Positions 16,583-23,635 of a stretch of DNA of 55,124 nucleotides are shown here, piece by piece. The stretch's first letter is position 1; each line of letters starts with the position of its first letter. Under the pieces are notes generated by a model. That model saw only the letters and a list, made by a program, of their open reading frames with translations. It did not search any database and had not been told where the DNA came from. The translations under genes were made by a program, and so were the position numbers. Source of the DNA: a virus (taxonomy: Duplodnaviria; Caudoviricetes); IMG/VR virus record IMGVR_UViG_3300030104_000130, positions 1-55,124 of that record, one strand, 5' to 3'.

Positions 16583-17106
16583 TTAACTCTGTTAGCCCAA
16601 TAAGCTGCCGACATTTTGCCTTTGGCAATGTTCTTTCTGTGTCTAGCTTTAAAAGACTTTCTTTTCATTTTTGTTTTACGAGACTCTCCTGCTTTAGGTT
16701 TACCTGCAGTCTTAGCACCTTGTTGTCCAAATCGTATTGTTTTGATTTTTGTACCTTCTTTTGCAACAACAATATGTGACTTAGTAGGATGATTGGGAGT
16801 ACGCTTGGGTTTGTTGTAACCACTGACTCCTGCTCGTTTTAATCTGCTGTCAGCTTTACCACCTTTAGCCATTCTAAACTTAGCAGTTTTTTCTGCAATC
16901 TTTTTAGGTTGAGGTGAGTGTTGCTTACCGGCAGCTTTATCTGCTTTTTTCTTTGCTGATGTTCTTGAATATTCTTCTGAAGTTAAAGTTTCTCTAGCTT
17001 TCTTTGGTAAATATCTTTCACCTGTTTCGCTAGACTTTTTACCAGACTTAGTTCCCCAGTCTTGTTCACCCCATTTCTTTAGAGACTCTTGTGGTTTCTT
17101 TAACAT
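16576..17106 (-). CDS. Very basic two-domain protein
   Basis: QESLKKWGEQDW..GERYLPKKA domain, MAKGG linker, then GYNKPKRTP..IRFGQQG..SAAYWA domain. Confidence 0.7.
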   Translation of the reverse strand: MLKKPQESLKKWGEQDWGTKSGKKSSETGERYLPKKARETLTSEEYSRTSAKKKADKAAGKQHSPQPKKIAEKTAKFRMAKGGKADSRLKRAGVSGYNKPKRTPNHPTKSHIVVAKEGTKIKTIRFGQQGAKTAGKPKAGESRKTKMKRKSFKARHRKNIAKGKMSAAYWANRVKW

Positions 17107-17333
17107 TACTTGTATCCTCCACCAGCTTTCTTGTAAGCCTTGGCTAGGGCTTGGGCTTTACGGGCAGACCATTGACCGGCTGCAGTACCGTGTGAAGCTT
17201 GTGATTTTATGCGTTGAAATATTCTTTTACGTAGTCCGGGCTTAGTATAGTTACCTGCTTCGTTGACTCGTGACTTAGACTTTTTCTTTTTAGCCTTACC
17301 ACCTTTTCTAAGTTGTAATCTTTCTAATAACAT
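17106..17333 (-). CDS. Basic protein, DUF5872-like N-half
   Basis: NYTKPGLR...GQWSARKAQ.LAK.YKKAGGGY. Confidence 0.65.
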   Translation of the reverse strand: MLLERLQLRKGGKAKKKKSKSRVNEAGNYTKPGLRKRIFQRIKSQASHGTAAGQWSARKAQALAKAYKKAGGGYK

Positions 17334-17539
17334 TAGTGTACTATCCTGTCGTCTTCTTTGGGTAAAGTGTTTAAATGTTTTTCTGCTTCATCATCAATGT
17401 ATATACTATCTAGCTCACCCACAACTATTAAATGATTTTGAGCTGCTGCTAATTCAGCTTGTTCAAAAGATGAAGCAATAATGTTTGGACCAGCAAAGGT
17501 TGTCCCATAGGCTTCGATCTCAGTCAGAAATATCTTCAT
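17333..17539 (-). CDS. Hypothetical protein
   Basis: MKIFLTEIE..FAGPNI.A...AE; coupled to neighbours. Confidence 0.55.
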   Translation of the reverse strand: MKIFLTEIEAYGTTFAGPNIIASSFEQAELAAAQNHLIVVGELDSIYIDDEAEKHLNTLPKEDDRIVH

Positions 17540-17954
17540 ATTCTCCATCTTCAATATCTAGTGGGGCTTTATCCGGCATTAAAAAAATACCACCTGCATT
17601 CATGTTATGTGTTACATCGACTTTATCTACTTTAGTAACACCTACTCTATCTAAAAGAGTCTGTGCTGCTGTAAGCTTATTGTTTGCTTGGATAATAGGT
17701 TTCTTAGAATCCATAATCTCTACAAGCTTAAAAGCTGCTTTAGGTGCTGAGTTTGCTAAAATCTCTTGAGTTATTTCTAGTATCTCAGACTTTAAAGTCT
17801 TTACAACATGATGGTGGTGGCTTTTGTACCCTGCAAGTTCTGCAGCCTTTTTAGCATCACCTTGACAATCAATTAGATGCTCAAGAAAAGACTCTTGTTT
17901 GGGTGTTAGCTCACGTTTTGTTTGGGCACTGTCAATGCTTGGTAATATAGCCAT
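17520..17954 (-). CDS. terS: Terminase small subunit (likely start ATG 17954, leaderless)
   Basis: LTPKQESFL...AKKAAELAGY HTH; AAQTLLDRVG; promoter lies inside the longer ORF call. Confidence 0.8.
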   Translation of the reverse strand: MAILPSIDSAQTKRELTPKQESFLEHLIDCQGDAKKAAELAGYKSHHHHVVKTLKSEILEITQEILANSAPKAAFKLVEIMDSKKPIIQANNKLTAAQTLLDRVGVTKVDKVDVTHNMNAGGIFLMPDKAPLDIEDGEYEDISD

Positions 17955-17961
17955 GTTCTTT

Positions 17962-17990
17962 ATTATAGCTGCACCTGAGAAATTTGTCAA
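17962..17990 (-). promoter_or_regulatory. Perfect sigma70 promoter for terS / late arm
   Basis: TTGACA-17 nt-TATAAT; ATG follows the -10 box after 7 nt. Confidence 0.85.
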
Positions 17991-18016
17991 GCTTTTAAAG
18001 TTTTTTTCTTTAAGAC

Positions 18017-18045
18017 TTGACAAAAGTGAATTGAGGATGTATAAT
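18017..18045 (+). promoter_or_regulatory. Perfect sigma70 promoter firing into non-coding structured region
   Basis: TTGACA(18017)-17 nt-TATAAT(18040). Confidence 0.85.
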
Positions 18046-18997
18046 AACTTTAGTGCCCCCCGGGTTAAAGCATACCTCAGAGCTCCCTGCTCACATGCTA
18101 AAACAACCTCAATCACCCTTCAACTTATCCTCAAAATAATACCTGTGTACTATAAAGATTTTAAAGTCTTTATGTCTCGGGTTGTAAACTAGATATAGAG
18201 TTATCTGGTTAATGGGGTATTTGCTGTAAAATGTATAATCATGCTATAGATATATAGGTATAGGGCTATGGTCTCCTGCCTACCCTTAGAGTTAAGCCCT
18301 ACCAAAACTAACAGCATAGGTGCATTGCAATGTAATCCTAAAACTACAAAGGCTTAAAAGATTATCATTAGTTTCCTAAGTTTAAGTAAAGCAATAGCAA
18401 CCTTGAAGTCTTTGGAGAGTCTTTACTAGAATCAAATCTTTGGCTTGAACTTAGGAAACTTATTAGATTTATAAGTCCACATAATCATCAATGGCTTCAT
18501 TGTTGCCTTTCCAATCCACCTTATCCCTCAGGTTTTCCTAAACTTCCAAGTCAATGCAATGCACTGCGAAAAGTTACAAAGCACTCCCAAGTCACACTCT
18601 GTCAAAGGTTAATATCAACGTCTTCCCCACAACATACTCCCTTTAGTTTAAGAGCATGGAGTGCTAAAGTGTCTAGAATGTTTAGCCCTCTATCAGCTTA
18701 AAGTCCTCGTATTACGGTTAGCGTATCCCTACAACATAAAAATCTCATAGCTGTTGCAAATCTCTTAAATAAACAGGTCGATCCATAAAAACTAACACAA
18801 ACTCTAATAGTTTCAGCTATCTGTAAAGTCTTTAAAATCTACAAGATACTCCTTTTTAACTGGTTTACGAATACATAAAGATTTCAAAGTATCAAGGAGT
18901 ATTAAAAATTTATCCGAAGCCAAGTAAATTTTGAATACTTAAGAGACCTTGACACTTCAAAATCTTTATGACTTAATGGTATTTTAAGGAGTATCTT

Positions 18998-19180
18998 ATG
19001 ATTTTAATAGACTTTACAAACAACGAAACTATTGAGTTTCCATCAGTTCTTATGGCTCAAATGTTCATTAGAGATTTGACATCTATGGACATTTATGTCG
19101 CAGGAATCCACTGCAGTAATGCAGAGGACTTTAAACCGCTAGAAGACTACATTCTAGCACTTTACCAATCCATAAACTAA
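18998..19180 (+). CDS. Hypothetical early protein
   Basis: AAGGAG RBS; RBS and ATG lie in a long hairpin arm. Confidence 0.7.
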   Translation: MILIDFTNNETIEFPSVLMAQMFIRDLTSMDIYVAGIHCSNAEDFKPLEDYILALYQSIN

Positions 19181-19192
19181 AAGGAGTACATT

Positions 19193-19462
19193 ATGGAAAA
19201 TACGTTTGATATTAACAGCTTTGACAAAGAGCAACTTAGCAGTCCAGCAACTTTTAAGCAGTGCAGAGCATTGTCTTACAAGTTTGCAAAAACTGGAGAT
19301 AAAATGAACTGGAAAGTCCACAAGCAAGTCCAAGGTTGCTTATATGGACTAGCCAAAGATAATAAGTTTTCTTTTAAACAAGCCAATGATTTGTTTTCAA
19401 AGAAGACTCTTCCAAAGAAATATAAAGATGCTATTGCTTTATATTTAAAAGAAAACTCTTAA
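19193..19462 (+). CDS. Hypothetical early protein
   Basis: AAGGAG RBS; PATFKQ motif; followed by terminator. Confidence 0.75.
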   Translation: MENTFDINSFDKEQLSSPATFKQCRALSYKFAKTGDKMNWKVHKQVQGCLYGLAKDNKFSFKQANDLFSKKTLPKKYKDAIALYLKENS

Positions 19463-19468
19463 TCTTTT

Positions 19469-19506
19469 AAGCCTTTGTAATTTAAAACATTGCAAAGGCT
19501 TTTTTT
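19469..19506 (+). terminator. Intrinsic terminator
   Basis: AAGCCUUUGUAA / UUGCAAAGGCUU stem plus U-run right after the stop codon. Confidence 0.75.
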
Positions 19507-19762
19507 AACTGTTAGTTTTGGTAAACTTCTGATCGCTTAAGATTCCTGGTGCATATGTCTTCTTAGCTCTAAGAATCACTAATTCATACCTGAAGCACCA
19601 GTGTTTTAAAAAGCGATCAGAAGTTTTTAACAGGCTTAACTCTAAGATTTTATAATTACCTCGAAGACTCGGTAGCTTTTTATCTTTGCATACGACCATA
19701 GCAAAGAATTAAGTTTAAATAATTTTAAATTTAATTAGCTTTCGAGTTTAAAGTTTAAAATT

Positions 19763-19975
19763 GGGCAGGAAGTTGAGGGATTTTTTATATAGGGGCAGGA
19801 AGTTGAGGGAAATGTTGCACAAATGTTTCTAAATTGTCACATAAAATTCACAAAATGTTTCTAAATTGTCACATAAATGACACAAAAGACACAAAAAAAA
19901 TACAATAATTTTTAAATATTTTAAAATTGTATTTAATTTTATAATTATTTTTAATATTAATTTTTAAGTTTTATA
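19763..19975. repeat. Direct repeats plus AT-rich tract (candidate origin or regulator-binding array)
   Basis: GGGCAGGAAGTTGAGGGA at 19763 and 19793; AAATGTTTCTAAATTGTCACATAAA at 19821 and 19853; near-pure A/T ~19900-19975. Confidence 0.7.
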
Positions 19976-19978
19976 TGC

Positions 19979-20007
19979 TTGACATCTGCTGATCTTGTCG
20001 CTATAAT
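19979..20007 (+). promoter_or_regulatory. Early sigma70 promoter 1
   Basis: TTGACA-17-TATAAT with upstream TTTTAAGTTTTATATGC. Confidence 0.9.
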
Positions 20008-20049
20008 ACACCCCGACACAGCAACCATGCTTTATTTTAGGAGATAGAT

Positions 20050-20274
20050 ATGGAAAAACCAAAACTTAAAAAGTTTAACAGTAATGAAAAAGCTTTACGC
20101 TATATCAGAGAGTTAGGCTTTAGTTTAAAAGATCGTCATTGTTTTAAAGAAGACAGATCGTATTTATACACCAAGAAGTTTTCAAAACAACAGGTGTATC
20201 TAAGATCAACGTTCGATTATCTAAACGATAACACTATAGAAATGGGGACTGTATGGACAGTACAACAATTTTAA
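20050..20274 (+). CDS. Hypothetical early protein
   Basis: AGGAG RBS, own promoter. Confidence 0.75.
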   Translation: MEKPKLKKFNSNEKALRYIRELGFSLKDRHCFKEDRSYLYTKKFSKQQVYLRSTFDYLNDNTIEMGTVWTVQQF

Positions 20275-20285
20275 GCTTTATACGC

Positions 20286-20314
20286 TTGACATCTGCCGAA
20301 GATGTCGGTATAAT
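20286..20314 (+). promoter_or_regulatory. Early sigma70 promoter 2
   Basis: TTGACA-17-TATAAT, near-identical upstream box. Confidence 0.9.
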
Positions 20315-20370
20315 TATCGGGCTTGGCAGGGTTCAAGCATTTAAAAATTCATAAACTTAAAGGAGATATT

Positions 20371-20667
20371 ATGAAAGAAGGGCATTTAATAAATAAAATC
20401 AACAGGTTAATTCCTATTGCAAACGCAACACCTATGTCAGAATTCTATGATGATGACAGCACAGGTATTTGGATTAGAGGTAGTGAGTATTCATACAAAG
20501 GAACGCTATCTTATGAAAGATTATTATATGAGCACTACCTAGCATATGAAGAAGGTTGTTCAGAAGATGATTGTGTACACCCAGACCTATTAAAAATAAT
20601 AGAAGATGCAGGGTGGTTTTATGAACCTTATGATGCAGGTACACTCATGTTGTACCCTAATTATTAA
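20371..20667 (+). CDS. Hypothetical early protein
   Basis: AAGGAG RBS before ATG 20371; GIW...HP...GW..EPYDAGT. Confidence 0.75.
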   Translation: MKEGHLINKINRLIPIANATPMSEFYDDDSTGIWIRGSEYSYKGTLSYERLLYEHYLAYEEGCSEDDCVHPDLLKIIEDAGWFYEPYDAGTLMLYPNY

Positions 20668-20684
20668 TTTTACAGGAGAAACTT

Positions 20685-20804
20685 ATGGAAGAACGAGATC
20701 ACTTTGATATGATAGAGTTTATAGAGTCTATCATTGAGCCACAAGAAGCTGTTAAAGAAGCTGACGATAGTATCGAAGACGACATCGAGCCTATTAGTTT
20801 TTAA
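20685..20804 (+). CDS. Acidic microprotein, 39 aa (not in ORF track)
   Basis: AGGAG RBS; MEERDHF...EDDIEPISF. Confidence 0.6.
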   Translation: MEERDHFDMIEFIESIIEPQEAVKEADDSIEDDIEPISF

Positions 20805-20815
20805 GTTTTATATGC

Positions 20816-20844
20816 TTGACAGCGTGGCAAGATCGGGGTATAAT
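20816..20844 (+). promoter_or_regulatory. Early sigma70 promoter 3
   Basis: TTGACA-17-TATAAT, same upstream box. Confidence 0.9.
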
Positions 20845-21089
20845 TATCCCCACAGAACGAACGGACATTATGTAAAAGAGTCCTTAAAATTATAAGGAAT
20901 TAAATAATATGACATAATGTCAAGGGAACATAGAGAAACACCAGCGTAAGATTATACAAAATAACCTGCATGTACTCTCCCGACTTAGACATTCGCTATA
21001 GATTTGTCTTTGAAAATCCTCTTTGTTAGTTTCGAGCAGTAGTAAACTAACACCTTTATTAACCTTAATAAACTATGGAGATAGTAAAT

Positions 21090-22775: not shown

Positions 22776-22917
22776 ATATAAATATGTTGTATGGGTTGGT
22801 GGTTGTGATAATTACTATACTGAATACGAGAGAGCCAAAGAACATTATGATGAATGGATTGAGCAAGGATATGATGATGTTCATTTATTAAAACTAGAGG
22901 AGAAAGCTAATGCCTAA
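22768..22917 (+). CDS. Small protein (Y.VWVGG...GYDDV pattern)
   Basis: GAGG RBS before MPKYKY. Confidence 0.65.
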   Translation: MPKYKYVVWVGGCDNYYTEYERAKEHYDEWIEQGYDDVHLLKLEEKANA

Positions 22918-23635
22918 ATATAATTTGCTATCAAGTGGTAGCACCAAGATTGAAAAGAGCAACAAGCTATCTGACGAATGGTTTAGTCGGATAATTTATT
23001 TAGCACCTGATGATTTAGCAGATGGCAAGAGAACTTTATGTCCATATGCAAAAGTTGCCAAGTGTAGTGAAGCCTGTTTGAACACAGCAGGTATGGGTAA
23101 ATTCTCTAATGTTCAGCAGTCAAGAATTAGAAAATCTCTACTGTTCTTAAACGACCAACAGGAGTTCATGAGACAGCTTGTAGAGGACGCAAATAAATTC
23201 TTGAAGGAGTGTGATAGGTTGGGTAAAAAACCTGCCCTACGGCTTAATGGTACAAGTGATATTCAGTGGGAAAATATTGAGGTTGATGGGTACAAAAATA
23301 TATTTGAAATGTACCCACAGATACAGTTTTATGACTATACAAAAATCCCTACAAGGAAGGTAGAGCACATACCTAATTATCATTTGACTTGGAGTTATTC
23401 CGAAGCTAATGATAAGTATGCTACTCTGTTCGACAAAGTATCGAACAATATAGCAGTAGTCTTTCGTGATGCTCTACCTAAGATGTTCAAGGGTTTGAAA
23501 GTAATTGATGGAGACGAACACGACATGAGATTCTTAGATGAAACTCAAGTGGTGGTTGGACTTATCGAAAAGGGTGAAGCCAAGAAGGATACTTCAGGCT
23601 TTGTAATTGATTTAATAAATGCGAGGGCAATATAA
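22910..23635 (+). CDS. Gp88-like protein with Cys triad
   Basis: CPYAKVAKCSEAC, LRLNGTSD, FYDYTK, YHLTWS, DGDEHDMRFLD. Confidence 0.75.
   Translation: MPKYNLLSSGSTKIEKSNKLSDEWFSRIIYLAPDDLADGKRTLCPYAKVAKCSEACLNTAGMGKFSNVQQSRIRKSLLFLNDQQEFMRQLVEDANKFLKECDRLGKKPALRLNGTSDIQWENIEVDGYKNIFEMYPQIQFYDYTKIPTRKVEHIPNYHLTWSYSEANDKYATLFDKVSNNIAVVFRDALPKMFKGLKVIDGDEHDMRFLDETQVVVGLIEKGEAKKDTSGFVIDLINARAI

What the first reader, a model, noticed from the sequence alone, without database searches (positions are those of the whole stretch)
18052..19810. Candidate ~1.75 kb structured RNA with kilobase-range pairing next to the terminase genes
Seen: nested perfect complements 18285-18298/19633-19646 (14 bp), 18300-18314/19509-19523 (15 bp), 18325-18333/19487-19495 (9 bp), 18345-18364/19460-19479 (20 bp). 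Between the first two, the right arm carries a self-contained domain (19524-19538/19611-19625, inner CTGGTGC/GCACCAG, TTCTTAG/CTAAGAA), giving a multiway junction rather than a plain inverted duplication. Further local stems: 18152-18173, 18188-18211, 18370-18386/18444-18460, 18580-18587/18658-18665, 18747-18753/18814-18820, 18822-19018, 19683-19707, 19708-19737. Most wobble positions read G-U on +, the strand of the promoter at 18017. Two small ORFs are looped inside. Inference: an undescribed large phage RNA (packaging, processing or regulatory role; loose analogies are phi29 pRNA and GOLLD/ROOL). Alternative: an ssDNA structure at the physical genome end.
Basis: partly seen in the sequence, partly recalled or inferred. 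Interest (0 to 1): 0.9.

Follow-up and report, generated by a model that had tools for sequence, protein, structure and literature searches.

The report
Kilobase fold-back around phage early genes
Next to the likely replication origin of an uncultured marine phage lies a 1.4-kb imperfect palindrome in which a non-coding arm mirrors two small early genes and has changed in step with them in dozens of related phages, which points to a fold-back function that nobody has described.

Summary
They are not a multi-domain RNA. They are the best-kept runs of one imperfect palindrome, 18285-19646, extending to 18265-19702 with its outer elements. The right arm is an early cassette (ORF60, ORF89, terminator). 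The left arm is a non-coding mirror copy, 445 of 544 aligned positions Watson-Crick.

The window is a complete 55-kb HMO-2011-type phage record. The palindrome is present in 61 of 62 related loci. In 22 of 22 non-redundant lineages each left arm fits its own right arm far better than any other lineage's (mean score 369 vs 63). In 12 close genome pairs, paired positions changed together 201 times where 57 were expected.

Wobble pairs read G-U on the minus strand: 45 vs 6 in the window and 450 vs 153 overall. The minus strand folds more stably in 19 of 22 lineages. The "junction domain" is an insertion absent from 20 of 21 lineages compared.

Function is unproven. My best reading is a minus-strand fold-back, as RNA or as replication-fork ssDNA, that tracks its gene cargo. 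The scan holds overlapping notes on this window only and none on other DNA. No paper I searched describes this element.

The parts
17520..17955 (-). terS (small terminase), first gene of the leftward late arm
   Evidence: PHROG 51/2538 and Pfam Terminase_2 hits, weak. 49-55% identical to the annotated terS of Pelagibacter phages HTVC103P/104P/115P.
17962..17990 (-). Consensus sigma70-type promoter. Its -10 box ends 7 nt before the terS ATG, so the terS mRNA would be leaderless.
   Evidence: 12/12 match. Both hexamers and the spacing to the ATG are kept in the aligned lineages. No transcript data.
18017..18045 (+). P_R: consensus promoter facing into the leader and the left arm
   Evidence: 12/12 match. 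The -35 block is conserved in all correctly anchored rows of the 22-lineage alignment; L044 was mis-anchored.
18052..18284 (+). Conserved non-coding leader. It holds the hairpin 18188-18211, whose stem is invariant and has a U-G pair on the + strand.
   Evidence: Alignment and RNAalifold of 23 sequences: stem columns 170-201 invariant, U-G in 20 of 23 and U-A in 3 of 23, loop length variable. The leader is also present in relatives that lack the palindrome.
18265..18273 (.). Core of the left outer element. It is the inverted partner of 19694-19702.
   Evidence: 9-nt perfect inverted repeat in the window (read). The variable positions differ between lineages but match left to right in several of them, e.g. 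L009, L043, L056 and L054 (read by eye, not counted).
18285..18912 (.). Left arm: a non-coding mirror copy of the right arm
   Evidence: No ATG-ORF longer than 71 aa on the - strand in 57 of 57 loci. It evolves faster than the right arm (87% vs 95% identity between the window and L005).
18913..18924 (.). Apex loop of the palindrome
   Evidence: Innermost aligned block is 18898-18912 / 18925-18939.
18949..18977 (+). Possible apex promoter for ORF60/ORF89 (perfect -35 box, 17-nt spacer, 4/6 -10 box)
   Evidence: My reading. The scan tool did not list it. The apex region is well conserved in sequence between lineages.
18998..19180 (+). ORF60, a small conserved protein of unknown function, in the right arm
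   Evidence: Intact in 22 of 22 lineages. AlphaFold model pLDDT 93. No PDB fold match at E<=0.001. No Pfam or PHROG hit.
19193..19462 (+). ORF89, a small conserved helical protein of unknown function, in the right arm
   Evidence: 62 homologous loci at 53-99% identity. Model pLDDT 84. No PDB fold match. No family hit. No homologue in 50,697 phage records.
19469..19508 (+). T1: intrinsic terminator of the cassette. Its 5' half is also the partner of 18345-18364.
   Evidence: 13-pair stem plus T run. A hairpin with different stem sequences and a T run is present in all 21 lineages aligned.
19524..19625 (+).
   Evidence: Perfect 16-nt arms. Absent in 20 of the 21 lineages aligned with the window.
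19656..19684 (+). Putative second terminator T2 (short hairpin followed by a T run)
   Evidence: A conserved block at this position in relatives. The terminator scan did not call it in the window.
19694..19702 (.). Core of the right outer element. It is the inverted partner of 18265-18273.
19763..19810 (.). Two 18-nt direct repeats at a period of 30 nt (iteron-like)
   Evidence: family D6. Paired copies of a related 9-nt core sit at the same place in 12 of 22 lineages.
19821..19960 (.). Two 32-nt repeats, then an almost pure A/T tract. This is the likely origin of replication.
   Evidence: family D3. At this position 11 of 22 lineages carry 1-3 exact DnaA boxes; the window carries none. The cumulative GC skew minimum is here.
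19979..20007 (+). First early promoter of the rightward arm
   Evidence: 12/12 match. Conserved in relatives.

Best explanation
What it is. The element is a conserved, kilobase-long fold-back in the control hub of an uncultured clade of HMO-2011-type marine phages. The hub lies between the leftward late genes, which start with terS, and the rightward early genes. It contains, in order: back-to-back consensus promoters, a conserved leader, the palindrome, two plus-strand terminators, and an origin-like stretch of repeats with an A/T tract. The right arm of the palindrome is a small early gene cassette (ORF60, ORF89, terminator). The left arm is a non-coding mirror image of that cassette.

Shown. 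The two arms change together. Different cassettes sitting in the same slot have their own mirror arms. The pairing constraint reads on the minus strand: G-U pairs and G-rich mismatches are tolerated there, while the same positions are A-C or C-C on the plus strand.

Inferred mechanism. The functional form is a minus-strand hairpin. My preferred version is RNA. Leftward transcripts that start near the origin and run toward terS must cross the early cassette in antisense. The mirror arm, which resembles the sense strand, would fold back on that antisense stretch and mask it. This would explain why the mirror always matches its cargo. A replication copy-correction process (template switching, right arm to left arm, on the leftward fork) probably helps keep the arms alike. 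The leftward transcript, its promoter and any effect on gene expression are not shown.
For: Palindrome and its extent.

Conservation: present in 61 of 62 ORF89 loci; the exception, L050, has only 37 nt of upstream DNA.

Co-evolution:
- Each left arm scores highest against its own right arm in 22 of 22 lineages (mean 369 vs 63). Right arms of different lineages are about 71% identical to each other, while the two arms of one genome are about 81% identical.
- In 12 independent close pairs, both partners of a pair changed 201 times where 56.6 were expected; 131 of these went from one Watson-Crick pair to another.
- In a 15-sequence alignment, 168-171 of 552 pair columns carry double-sided changes. 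Slid controls give 53-78 and shuffles give about 105; 0 of 100 shuffles reach the observed value.

The left arm is non-coding in 57 of 57 loci. Both ORFs are intact in 22 of 22 lineages.

Minus-strand signature:
- A:C on + vs G:U on + is 45 vs 6 in the window and 450 vs 153 over 22 lineages (p 7e-35). A:C is the larger count in 16 lineages, equal in 2 and smaller in 4.
- Among other mismatches, CC outnumbers GG on + by 124 to 38.
- The minus-strand MFE is lower in 19 of 22 lineages. In the window it is -552.7 vs -412.6, or -657.9 vs -512.0 over 1451 nt.
- The bias is present in all six 100-nt bins along the arm.
- It is due mainly to the left arm carrying C opposite a conserved A: 104 cases vs 6.
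- Bulged left-arm residues show no A+C excess, and four-fold-site skews are small. Background mutation bias therefore does not explain it.

Cargo-specific mirrors: among 51 terS loci with at least 2 kb of upstream DNA, 25 have a large palindrome. 11 of the 25 pair an ORF60 homologue with no ORF89 homologue; an unrelated 113-aa or 133-aa second gene was read in five of these (L086/L089/L091/L094, L129). The same bias recurs there: 28-30 vs 7 in one type and 23 vs 3 in L125.

The pairing extends past the plus-strand terminators to covarying outer elements.

Weak hint: contigs from relatives in 3 RNA-library runs (2 studies) span both predicted transcription start sites, at 17904-18141, 17914-18109 and 17932-18285.
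Against: - No conserved sigma70-type promoter on the minus strand was found to the right of the palindrome. Only 8 of 22 lineages have a hit of 10/12 or better, at scattered positions, and the window has none.
- There is no strand-resolved transcript evidence. The RNA-library contigs come from relatives, carry no strand information, and could be DNA carry-over.
- The only strong promoter aimed at the element, P_R, faces the other way. The conserved leader hairpin has its wobble pair on the plus strand.
- 4 of 22 lineages show the opposite small excess, 2 show none, and the L129 cassette type shows none (15 vs 14).
- G-containing mismatches are also the most stable mismatches in DNA (recalled), so the signature does not separate RNA from ssDNA.
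- In the window vs L005, 10 of 17 right-arm changes are already matched in the left arm, while 44 left-arm-only changes are tolerated. That pattern fits a DNA copying process better than pure selection on RNA pairing.
- 24 of 51 related loci have no large palindrome, so the element is dispensable for the phage type.
Confidence: 0.4

Rival explanations
1. DNA-level element. The quasi-palindrome acts, or is merely maintained, as DNA next to the origin. It would form a minus-strand hairpin on the lagging-strand template of the leftward fork, or a cruciform. Polymerase template switching would repeatedly rewrite the left arm from the right arm. The function would be replication-related (fork control, priming, origin architecture), or there would be none beyond self-maintenance.
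For: - The palindrome adjoins iteron-like repeats, an A/T tract and, in 11 of 22 lineages, 1-3 exact DnaA boxes. The cumulative GC skew minimum is here.
- The palindrome ignores transcription-unit borders and includes outer elements beyond both plus-strand terminators.
- Coupled changes are far more frequent than expected even between 95%-identical genomes, and the coding arm is the conserved partner. That fits directional copy-correction.
- For a fork leaving the origin leftward, the minus strand is the exposed template. This matches the strand of the wobble signature (the fork geometry is inference).
- Template switching is reported to homogenise and extend imperfect inverted repeats (abstract starts of PMC8604942, PMC13100816 and PMC7202029 in the listing).
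Against: - Copy-correction alone predicts no preference among mismatch types. The strand-specific wobble excess, which is confined to paired positions, still needs selection on a folded single strand.
- It gives no reason why the folded length should track the cargo, other than as a by-product.
- Long palindromes are usually unstable in bacteria and their phages (recalled), yet this one persists in lineages whose right arms are only about 71% identical.
- The origin is predicted from sequence only. The window itself has no DnaA box.
Confidence: 0.3
2. The plus-strand transcript from P_R (about 18052 to the terminator at 19508) folds into a giant hairpin. Its untranslated 5' arm acts as a built-in antisense. 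It buries the ribosome-binding sites of ORF60 and ORF89, competes with the terminator stem, and may offer RNase III sites. Only transcripts from an apex promoter, or processed RNA, would then be translated.
For: - P_R is a perfect consensus promoter conserved in relatives, and no terminator is predicted before 19469.
- The ribosome-binding sites and start codons of both ORFs lie in long complementary blocks: 18822-18854/18986-19018 and 18617-18650/19173-19206.
- The 20-bp perfect block 18345-18364/19460-19479 covers the 5' half of the terminator stem.
- The plus strand still folds 27 sd below shuffles.
- A cargo-specific mirror is what a cis-antisense would need.
Against: - The wobble and mismatch spectra run the wrong way for a selected plus-strand helix (153 vs 450). 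Opposite a right-arm T, only 72 of 2749 left-arm bases are G. Opposite a right-arm A, 276 of 3555 are C.
- The plus-strand MFE is weaker in 19 of 22 lineages.
- The covarying outer elements lie beyond two plus-strand terminators.
- The left-arm RNA is C-rich and G-poor (125 C vs 84 G) and untranslated. That would favour Rho termination before the ORFs are reached (inference).
Confidence: 0.15
3. Neutral relic. A single old inverted duplication of the cassette occurred and one copy has simply decayed. It has no function and no ongoing process keeps it.
For: The left arm has lost its start codons and reading frames, carries many small indels, and evolves faster than the right arm. 24 of 51 related loci lack a large palindrome.
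Against: - A single old duplication predicts that a left arm fits every lineage's right arm equally well. Instead the own arm wins in 22 of 22 lineages, with six-fold higher mean scores.
- Paired positions change together 3.6 times more often than expected.
- Independent cassette types have their own mirrors.
- The strand-specific wobble excess is unexplained.
Confidence: 0.04

Closest known systems
Quasipalindromes kept alike by replication template switching (bacteria, yeast)
   Same: Imperfect inverted repeats whose arms become more alike and longer through copying of one arm from the other. Paired positions change together. Seen only as abstract starts in the listing (PMC7202029, PMC8604942, PMC13100816).
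   Different: The cases I recall are tens of bases long (recalled; the listings give no sizes). Here each arm is 600-800 nt, one arm is a working two-gene cassette and the other is non-coding. The arms stay near 80% rather than becoming perfect, and the surviving mismatches are strand-biased.
Hairpin RNAs born from inverted gene duplications in eukaryotes (e.g. maize Mu killer)
   Same: A partial inverted duplicate of a gene, read through from a flanking promoter, gives a kilobase hairpin RNA that is specific for that gene (abstract start of PMC3440606 in the listing).
   Different: Those hairpins act through the siRNA machinery, which bacteria lack. No transcript is shown here. The strand signature here points to the strand antisense to the genes.
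Phage T5 injection-stop (iss) non-coding region
   Same: A conserved non-coding region of more than 1 kb in a phage. It is full of inverted repeats and palindromes, combined with DnaA boxes, and is better conserved than the neighbouring ORFs (passages read in 10.1101/866236).
   Different: The T5 inverted repeats are 131 bp, about 3 kb apart, and do not mirror genes. No sequence similarity was sought or found. The window itself has no DnaA box. Genome ends and injection order are unknown here.
Cis-antisense and fold-back control of small phage or plasmid genes (hok/sok fold-back inhibition, P1 c4, P4 CI; all recalled)
   Same: RNA made upstream in the same region pairs with the message of nearby small genes. 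Long-range 5'-3' pairing locks a message.
   Different: Those pairings are tens of nucleotides and read on the mRNA strand. Here the complementarity covers the entire cassette and reads on the opposite strand. ORF60 and ORF89 are predicted to be soluble folded proteins, not membrane toxins.
Strand-specific ssDNA hairpin signals (plasmid single-strand origins, filamentous-phage minus-strand origin, F plasmid Frpo; recalled)
   Same: Imperfect hairpins that work on only one DNA strand and tolerate mismatches. They lie beside origins or leading regions.
   Different: Those are about 150-400 nt, have fixed sequences, and are not copies of neighbouring genes. This phage is a dsDNA podovirus type with its own primase-helicase.

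Membership tests
Any Rfam family (including GOLLD, ROOL, phi29 pRNA) | Covariance-model match at or near the family's gathering score | tested here: not met
   cmscan of 17000-21000 on both strands at E<=1 gave two chance-level hits (PsrR1 23.7 bits against 42 needed; Erse 14.2 against 138). Neither is related to the element.
Inverted duplication / quasi-palindrome | The two arms are reverse complements over their whole length, in collinear order | tested here: met
   570 aligned columns, 465 matches, 39 collinear blocks from 18300 to 19523. Minus-strand self-hit with E 5e-139.
Inverted duplication / quasi-palindrome | Arms homogenised by an ongoing copying process (template switch or gene conversion) | tested here: inconclusive
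   Coupled changes are 201 against 56.6 expected, and own-arm fit exceeds cross-lineage fit in 22 of 22 lineages. These tools cannot separate copying from compensatory selection. No long perfect tract is seen in the window; the longest run is 20 bp.
   Compensatory changes are present. G:U on + is the rare class, 153 against 450 A:C, and the plus-strand MFE is weaker in 19 of 22 lineages.
Structured RNA or ssDNA on the minus strand | Compensatory changes, with wobble tolerated on that strand and the bias confined to paired positions | tested here: met
Structured RNA or ssDNA on the minus strand | Existence of the single-stranded molecule (a transcript, or exposed template strand) | not testable with these tools
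   Only unstranded contigs from RNA libraries of relatives were available. No conserved leftward promoter was found.
Intrinsic terminator (T1, 19469-19508) | GC-containing hairpin followed by a T run, kept in relatives | tested here: met
   13-pair stem plus T run. All 21 lineages aligned have a hairpin with different stem sequences and a T run.
DnaA-dependent origin (oriC-like) | A cluster of DnaA boxes next to an A/T-rich unwinding tract | tested here: inconclusive
   1-3 exact boxes in 11 of 22 lineages, against 0-1 boxes with up to one mismatch in control stretches. The window has none; it has other repeats and the A/T tract instead. The box consensus is as quoted in the T5 preprint.
Invertible DNA segment (Mu G, Hin type) | Both orientations occur in populations, with a recombinase gene alongside | tested here: not met
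   The left outer element lies upstream of the apex, in the same orientation, in 21 of the 22 lineages; L044's true anchor lies further upstream in the same orientation. The genes face outward from the centre, so an outside promoter could not switch them. No recombinase was noticed among the 10 neighbouring ORFs scanned; the rest of the genome was not scanned.
Type I toxin-antitoxin | A small hydrophobic toxin peptide plus an antisense RNA | tested here: not met
   ORF60 is predicted as a beta-beta-alpha-beta-alpha fold (pLDDT 93) and ORF89 as a helical bundle (pLDDT 84). Neither is a single membrane helix. Toxicity was not tested.

The most novel reading that the evidence does not exclude
Phages of this clade carry a previously unknown kind of regulator: a kilobase-long, cargo-matched 'mirror arm' that folds back on the antisense copy of an early gene cassette within a long minus-strand RNA. 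That RNA may be the leader of replication-coupled late transcripts. The arm is rewritten whenever the cassette is exchanged. This would be the first kb-scale hairpin RNA with a function in a bacterial virus, kept in register with its target by replication template switching.
Probability: 0.25. Interest if true: 0.85.

Novelty: new variant of a known kind. Interest (0 to 1): 0.72.

Why it matters
HMO-2011-type phages are described as a dominant and broadly distributed marine viral group (abstract of PMC9038755). Their control regions have not been described: that paper's text contains none of six terms I searched, such as 'promoter', 'inverted' and 'origin of replication'.

This element shows that a streamlined phage keeps 600-800 nt of non-coding DNA as a co-evolving mirror of small early genes, and does so for several unrelated cassettes.

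If the fold-back is RNA, it is a new way to control or insulate hypervariable early genes, the class that often holds host-takeover and anti-defence functions.

If it is DNA, it is a natural, long-lived kilobase quasi-palindrome at an origin. It would be a ready-made system for studying template switching and palindrome tolerance.

Either way, the strand-specific wobble signature gives a clear, testable prediction about which strand is single-stranded in vivo.

Tried and rejected
- Known RNA families: no Rfam match.
- Known phages: no DNA match to 18000-20060 in 50,697 phage records in near or distant mode, and no ORF89 homologue there. The nearest named phages (HTVC115P, HTVC103P, HTVC033P, HMO-2011) have no comparable palindrome or slot. 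Only HTVC115P was scanned for repeats; the others were judged from their annotation.
- Function of the cargo: no Pfam, PHROG or PDB-fold assignment for ORF60 or ORF89.
- Expression: four RNA-library runs held only small shares. When laid, they covered only the conserved flanks, from relatives, and gave no cover over 18288-19397. This says nothing about transcription of the palindrome.
- Leftward promoter: a sigma70 scan of the right flank found nothing conserved.
- Mutation bias as the cause of the wobble asymmetry: rejected. Four-fold-site skews are small. Bulged left-arm residues are not A+C rich. The commonest change, C in the left arm opposite a conserved A, runs against the genome's A/T pressure. 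Transcription-associated deamination from rightward transcription predicts the opposite bias.
- Recent gene-conversion tracts in the window: the longest perfect run (20 bp) is about what random placement of mismatches gives (my estimate).
- Invertible segment, type I toxin-antitoxin, diversity-generating retroelement: considered. The first two failed their tests (see Membership tests). The third was set aside because the differences are A-to-G and C-to-T only; the genome was not scanned for a reverse transcriptase.
- Physical genome end: the positions at which related contigs end are scattered (my reading of the tables), so no terminus could be inferred.
- Literature: four searches and one term search in PMC9038755 found no description of this element. 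Supplementary files were not consulted.
- Unused tools: complex prediction, the search for homologous proteins, the search of protein representatives, the protein-atlas search and the metagenome and genome contig scans. The viral contigs already gave enough relatives.
Full report
1. Context

The window is a whole viral record of 55,124 bp, rated complete. Its large terminase is 65-66% identical to those of Pelagibacter phages HTVC115P, HTVC103P and HTVC104P, and 47-50% identical to those of the roseophage CRP group and Puniceispirillum phage HMO-2011. It is therefore an uncultured HMO-2011-type phage.

Genes run leftward from terS (17520-17955, minus strand) and rightward from about 20050; the rightward arm includes a primase-helicase. 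The finding lies in the 2.1-kb divergent gap between these two arms. The cumulative GC skew has its minimum here.

2. The observation

Taken together they form one structure. Positions 18300-18912 align, block after block and in collinear order, with the reverse complement of 18925-19523: 570 columns, 465 matches, many 1-6 nt indels. The genome tool reports the same self-match on the minus strand at E 5e-139.

The 14-bp outer stem and a 9-nt pair further out (18265-18273 / 19694-19702) extend the symmetry to about 1.45 kb. At about 80% identity, a 20-bp perfect run is roughly the longest that chance placement of mismatches gives (my estimate). The 'nested perfect complements' are therefore the peaks of a full-length imperfect palindrome.

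The two ORFs are not looped inside it; they form the right arm.

3. What the arms are

The right arm holds ORF60 (18998-19180) and ORF89 (19193-19462), each with a strong ribosome-binding site, followed by an intrinsic terminator at 19469-19508.

Both ORFs are intact and recognisably conserved in all 22 non-redundant lineages. Both give confident small folds, pLDDT 93 and 84. Neither has a family or PDB match.

The left arm is the mirror of this unit, but it has no comparable reading frame on the minus strand in 57 of 57 loci. It diverges faster than the right arm; between the window and L005 it is 87% identical against 95% for the right arm.

4. Relatives

A scan of viral contigs with ORF89 returned 62 loci at 53-99% protein identity. 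A self-complement of 339-1373 aligned nt centred 230-330 nt upstream of ORF89 is present in 61 of them. The remaining locus, L050, starts 37 nt before the ORF.

No cultured phage record has ORF89 or the DNA. The closest named pelagiphages have only 590-800 nt of non-coding DNA upstream of terS, and HTVC115P shows no large inverted repeat.

5. The arms co-evolve

I reduced 57 usable sequences to 22 lineages whose right arms are at most 90% identical.

Aligning every left arm with the reverse complement of every right arm gave a mean score of 369 for arms from the same genome and 63 for arms from different lineages. The own arm scored best in 22 of 22 rows. Right arms of different lineages are about 71% identical, while the two arms of one genome are about 81% identical. 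A single old duplication followed by independent decay predicts equal fits, so that reading is excluded.

In 12 independent pairs of closely related genomes (5,609 paired positions compared), both partners of a pair differ 201 times where 56.6 are expected from independence. 131 of these go from one Watson-Crick pair to another.

On a MAFFT alignment of 15 sequences (A4), using the pairing of one member, 168 (plus strand) or 171 (minus strand) of 552 pair columns carry double-sided changes. With the partner slid by 1-3 columns the figure is 53-78, and in shuffles it is about 105; 0 of 100 shuffles reach the observed value.

6. Which strand

- In the window, 445 of 544 aligned positions are Watson-Crick, 6 are G:U on the plus strand, 45 are A:C on the plus strand (G:U on the minus strand), and 48 are other mismatches.
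- Over 22 lineages the counts are 153 against 450 (binomial p 7e-35). A:C is the larger class in 16 lineages, equal in 2 and smaller in 4.
- Other mismatches lean the same way: C:C 124 against G:G 38 on the plus strand.
- The minus strand folds more stably in 19 of 22 lineages, with a mean difference of -67 kcal/mol. The window gives -552.7 against -412.6 over 1200 nt and -657.9 against -512.0 over 18255-19705.
- The bias is present in all six 100-nt bins from apex to base.

It is not explained by background mutation.
- Four-fold degenerate sites show only small skews, and G+C there is 11-14%.
- In six strongly biased lineages, the left arm carries C opposite an A that is the common base in other lineages in 104 cases, against 6 cases where the right arm looks changed (47 ambiguous). 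That change runs against the A/T pressure.
- Left-arm residues that are bulged out of the pairing show no A+C excess: A 25%, C 17%, G 19%, T 38%.

The constraint therefore behaves as pairing read on the minus strand, with wobble allowed. G-containing mismatches are also the mildest in DNA (recalled), so this does not separate RNA from single-stranded DNA.

7. Surroundings, from alignments of relatives

To the left:
- Two perfect consensus promoters stand back to back. One starts at or next to the terS ATG, giving a leaderless message. The other, P_R, faces the palindrome. Both are conserved.
- P_R is followed by a conserved leader of about 230 nt. It contains an invariant hairpin (18188-18211) whose wobble pair is on the plus strand in 20 of 23 sequences.
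- The leader ends in a strongly conserved element at 18234-18284.

To the right:
- T1 is present in all 21 lineages aligned, with differing stem sequences.
- A second terminator-like block follows.
- Next comes an inverted copy of the core of the left conserved element. Its variable positions match left to right in several lineages (read by eye).
- Then come paired iteron-like repeats.
- After these, 11 of 22 lineages carry 1-3 exact DnaA boxes. The window has two 32-nt repeats at that place instead.
- An A/T tract and the first early promoter close the region.

This looks like a replication origin, but that is a prediction from sequence only.

8. The slot is variable

Of 73 terS loci, 51 have at least 2 kb of upstream DNA. 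Among these, 25 hold a large palindrome, 2 a small one and 24 none.

Eleven of the 25 have an ORF60 homologue but no ORF89 homologue. In five of these that I examined (L086, L089, L091, L094 and L129) the right arm holds an unrelated second ORF of 113 or 133 aa, and the mirror arm covers that gene too, giving palindromes of 1265-1568 nt. The wobble bias recurs: 28-30 against 7 in one type and 23 against 3 in L125, but 15 against 14 in L129.

Phages whose terS is 92-97% identical to the window's can carry entirely different ORFs in the same slot. In those, only short inverted repeats remain at the outer ends and near the apex.

The mirror therefore follows the cargo, and cassettes are exchanged between otherwise near-identical phages.

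9. Expression data

Public RNA-library runs held only 5-7% of the sampled words. Their contigs come from relatives and cover the conserved flanks only.

Three contigs from three runs (two studies) span 17904-18141, 17914-18109 and 17932-18285. Each crosses both predicted transcription start sites, which transcripts from the two mapped promoters alone would not do. This is compatible with read-through RNA heading into terS, and equally with DNA carry-over. I treat it only as a weak hint.

10. Reading

Shown:
- a conserved, co-evolving, cargo-matched mirror arm;
- a pairing constraint on the minus strand;
- a position between a conserved promoter-leader module and an origin-like module.

Inferred: the functional form is a minus-strand hairpin. 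I prefer the RNA version. Leftward transcripts from near the origin toward terS would cross the cassette in antisense, and the mirror arm would mask that stretch. This is the only version that explains why the mirror must match the cargo.

The high share of already-matched changes between very close genomes (10 of 17 right-arm changes between the window and L005) suggests that a DNA copying process, template switching on the leftward fork, does much of the matching.

The main weakness is that no leftward promoter was found and no transcript is shown. The DNA-only reading is nearly as likely.

11. Comparison with what is known

- Nothing in Rfam matches.
- Four literature searches and a term search of the main HMO-2011-type paper found no description.
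- The nearest concepts are: short quasipalindromes homogenised by template switching (abstract starts); eukaryotic hairpin RNAs from inverted gene duplications such as Mu killer (abstract start); the T5 injection-stop region with inverted repeats and DnaA boxes (passages); and, from memory, short cis-antisense or fold-back controls (hok/sok, P1 c4) and strand-specific ssDNA origins.
- None of these combines kilobase length, one coding and one non-coding arm, cargo tracking and a strand-specific wobble signature.

12. Verdict

Its anatomy and strand were misread, and its function is open.

Earlier notes of this scan on the same window touch parts of it: the apex hairpin with its A-C mismatches, the terminator complement, the back-to-back promoters and the iterons. 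None describes the whole element, and no look-alike note exists on other DNA.

Noticed in passing
window 17955-18052: Back-to-back perfect consensus promoters. The -10 box of the leftward one ends 7 nt before the terS ATG and there is no Shine-Dalgarno sequence, so the first late gene would be translated from a leaderless mRNA. The arrangement is conserved across the aligned lineages.
   Followed up: partly
window 19763-19960; relatives e.g. L007, L019, L040, L044 right flank: Origin-like module: paired iteron-like repeats, then 1-3 exact DnaA boxes in 11 of 22 lineages (the window has two 32-nt repeats instead), then an A/T tract and the first early promoter. The repeat sequence differs between lineages, as if its binding protein co-varies.
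   Followed up: partly
window 18188-18211 and 18234-18284: Two strongly conserved non-coding elements in the P_R leader: an invariant hairpin with variable loop length and a U-G pair on the plus strand, and a block of about 50 nt ending in a G/C-rich element. Both are also present in relatives that lack the palindrome, so they have a function of their own (small RNA, packaging site or protein site?).
   Followed up: partly
L074, L076, L085 (terS 92-97% identical to the window), upstream of terS: The same slot holds unrelated small ORFs (about 65 aa and about 130 aa). There are only short inverted repeats at the outer ends (21 bp perfect in L074) and near the apex. The slot is thus a hot spot for exchange of early-gene cassettes between near-identical phages.
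   Followed up: partly
window 19979-20007 and 20286-20314: Two 46-nt blocks, 85% alike, each holding a perfect consensus promoter, sit 307 nt apart ahead of small early ORFs (direct-repeat family D1).
   Followed up: no
window 22910-23635: An early-arm ORF with a strong match to Pfam GP88 (PF17338, E 1e-43) and PHROG 1617. Its function is unknown.
   Followed up: no
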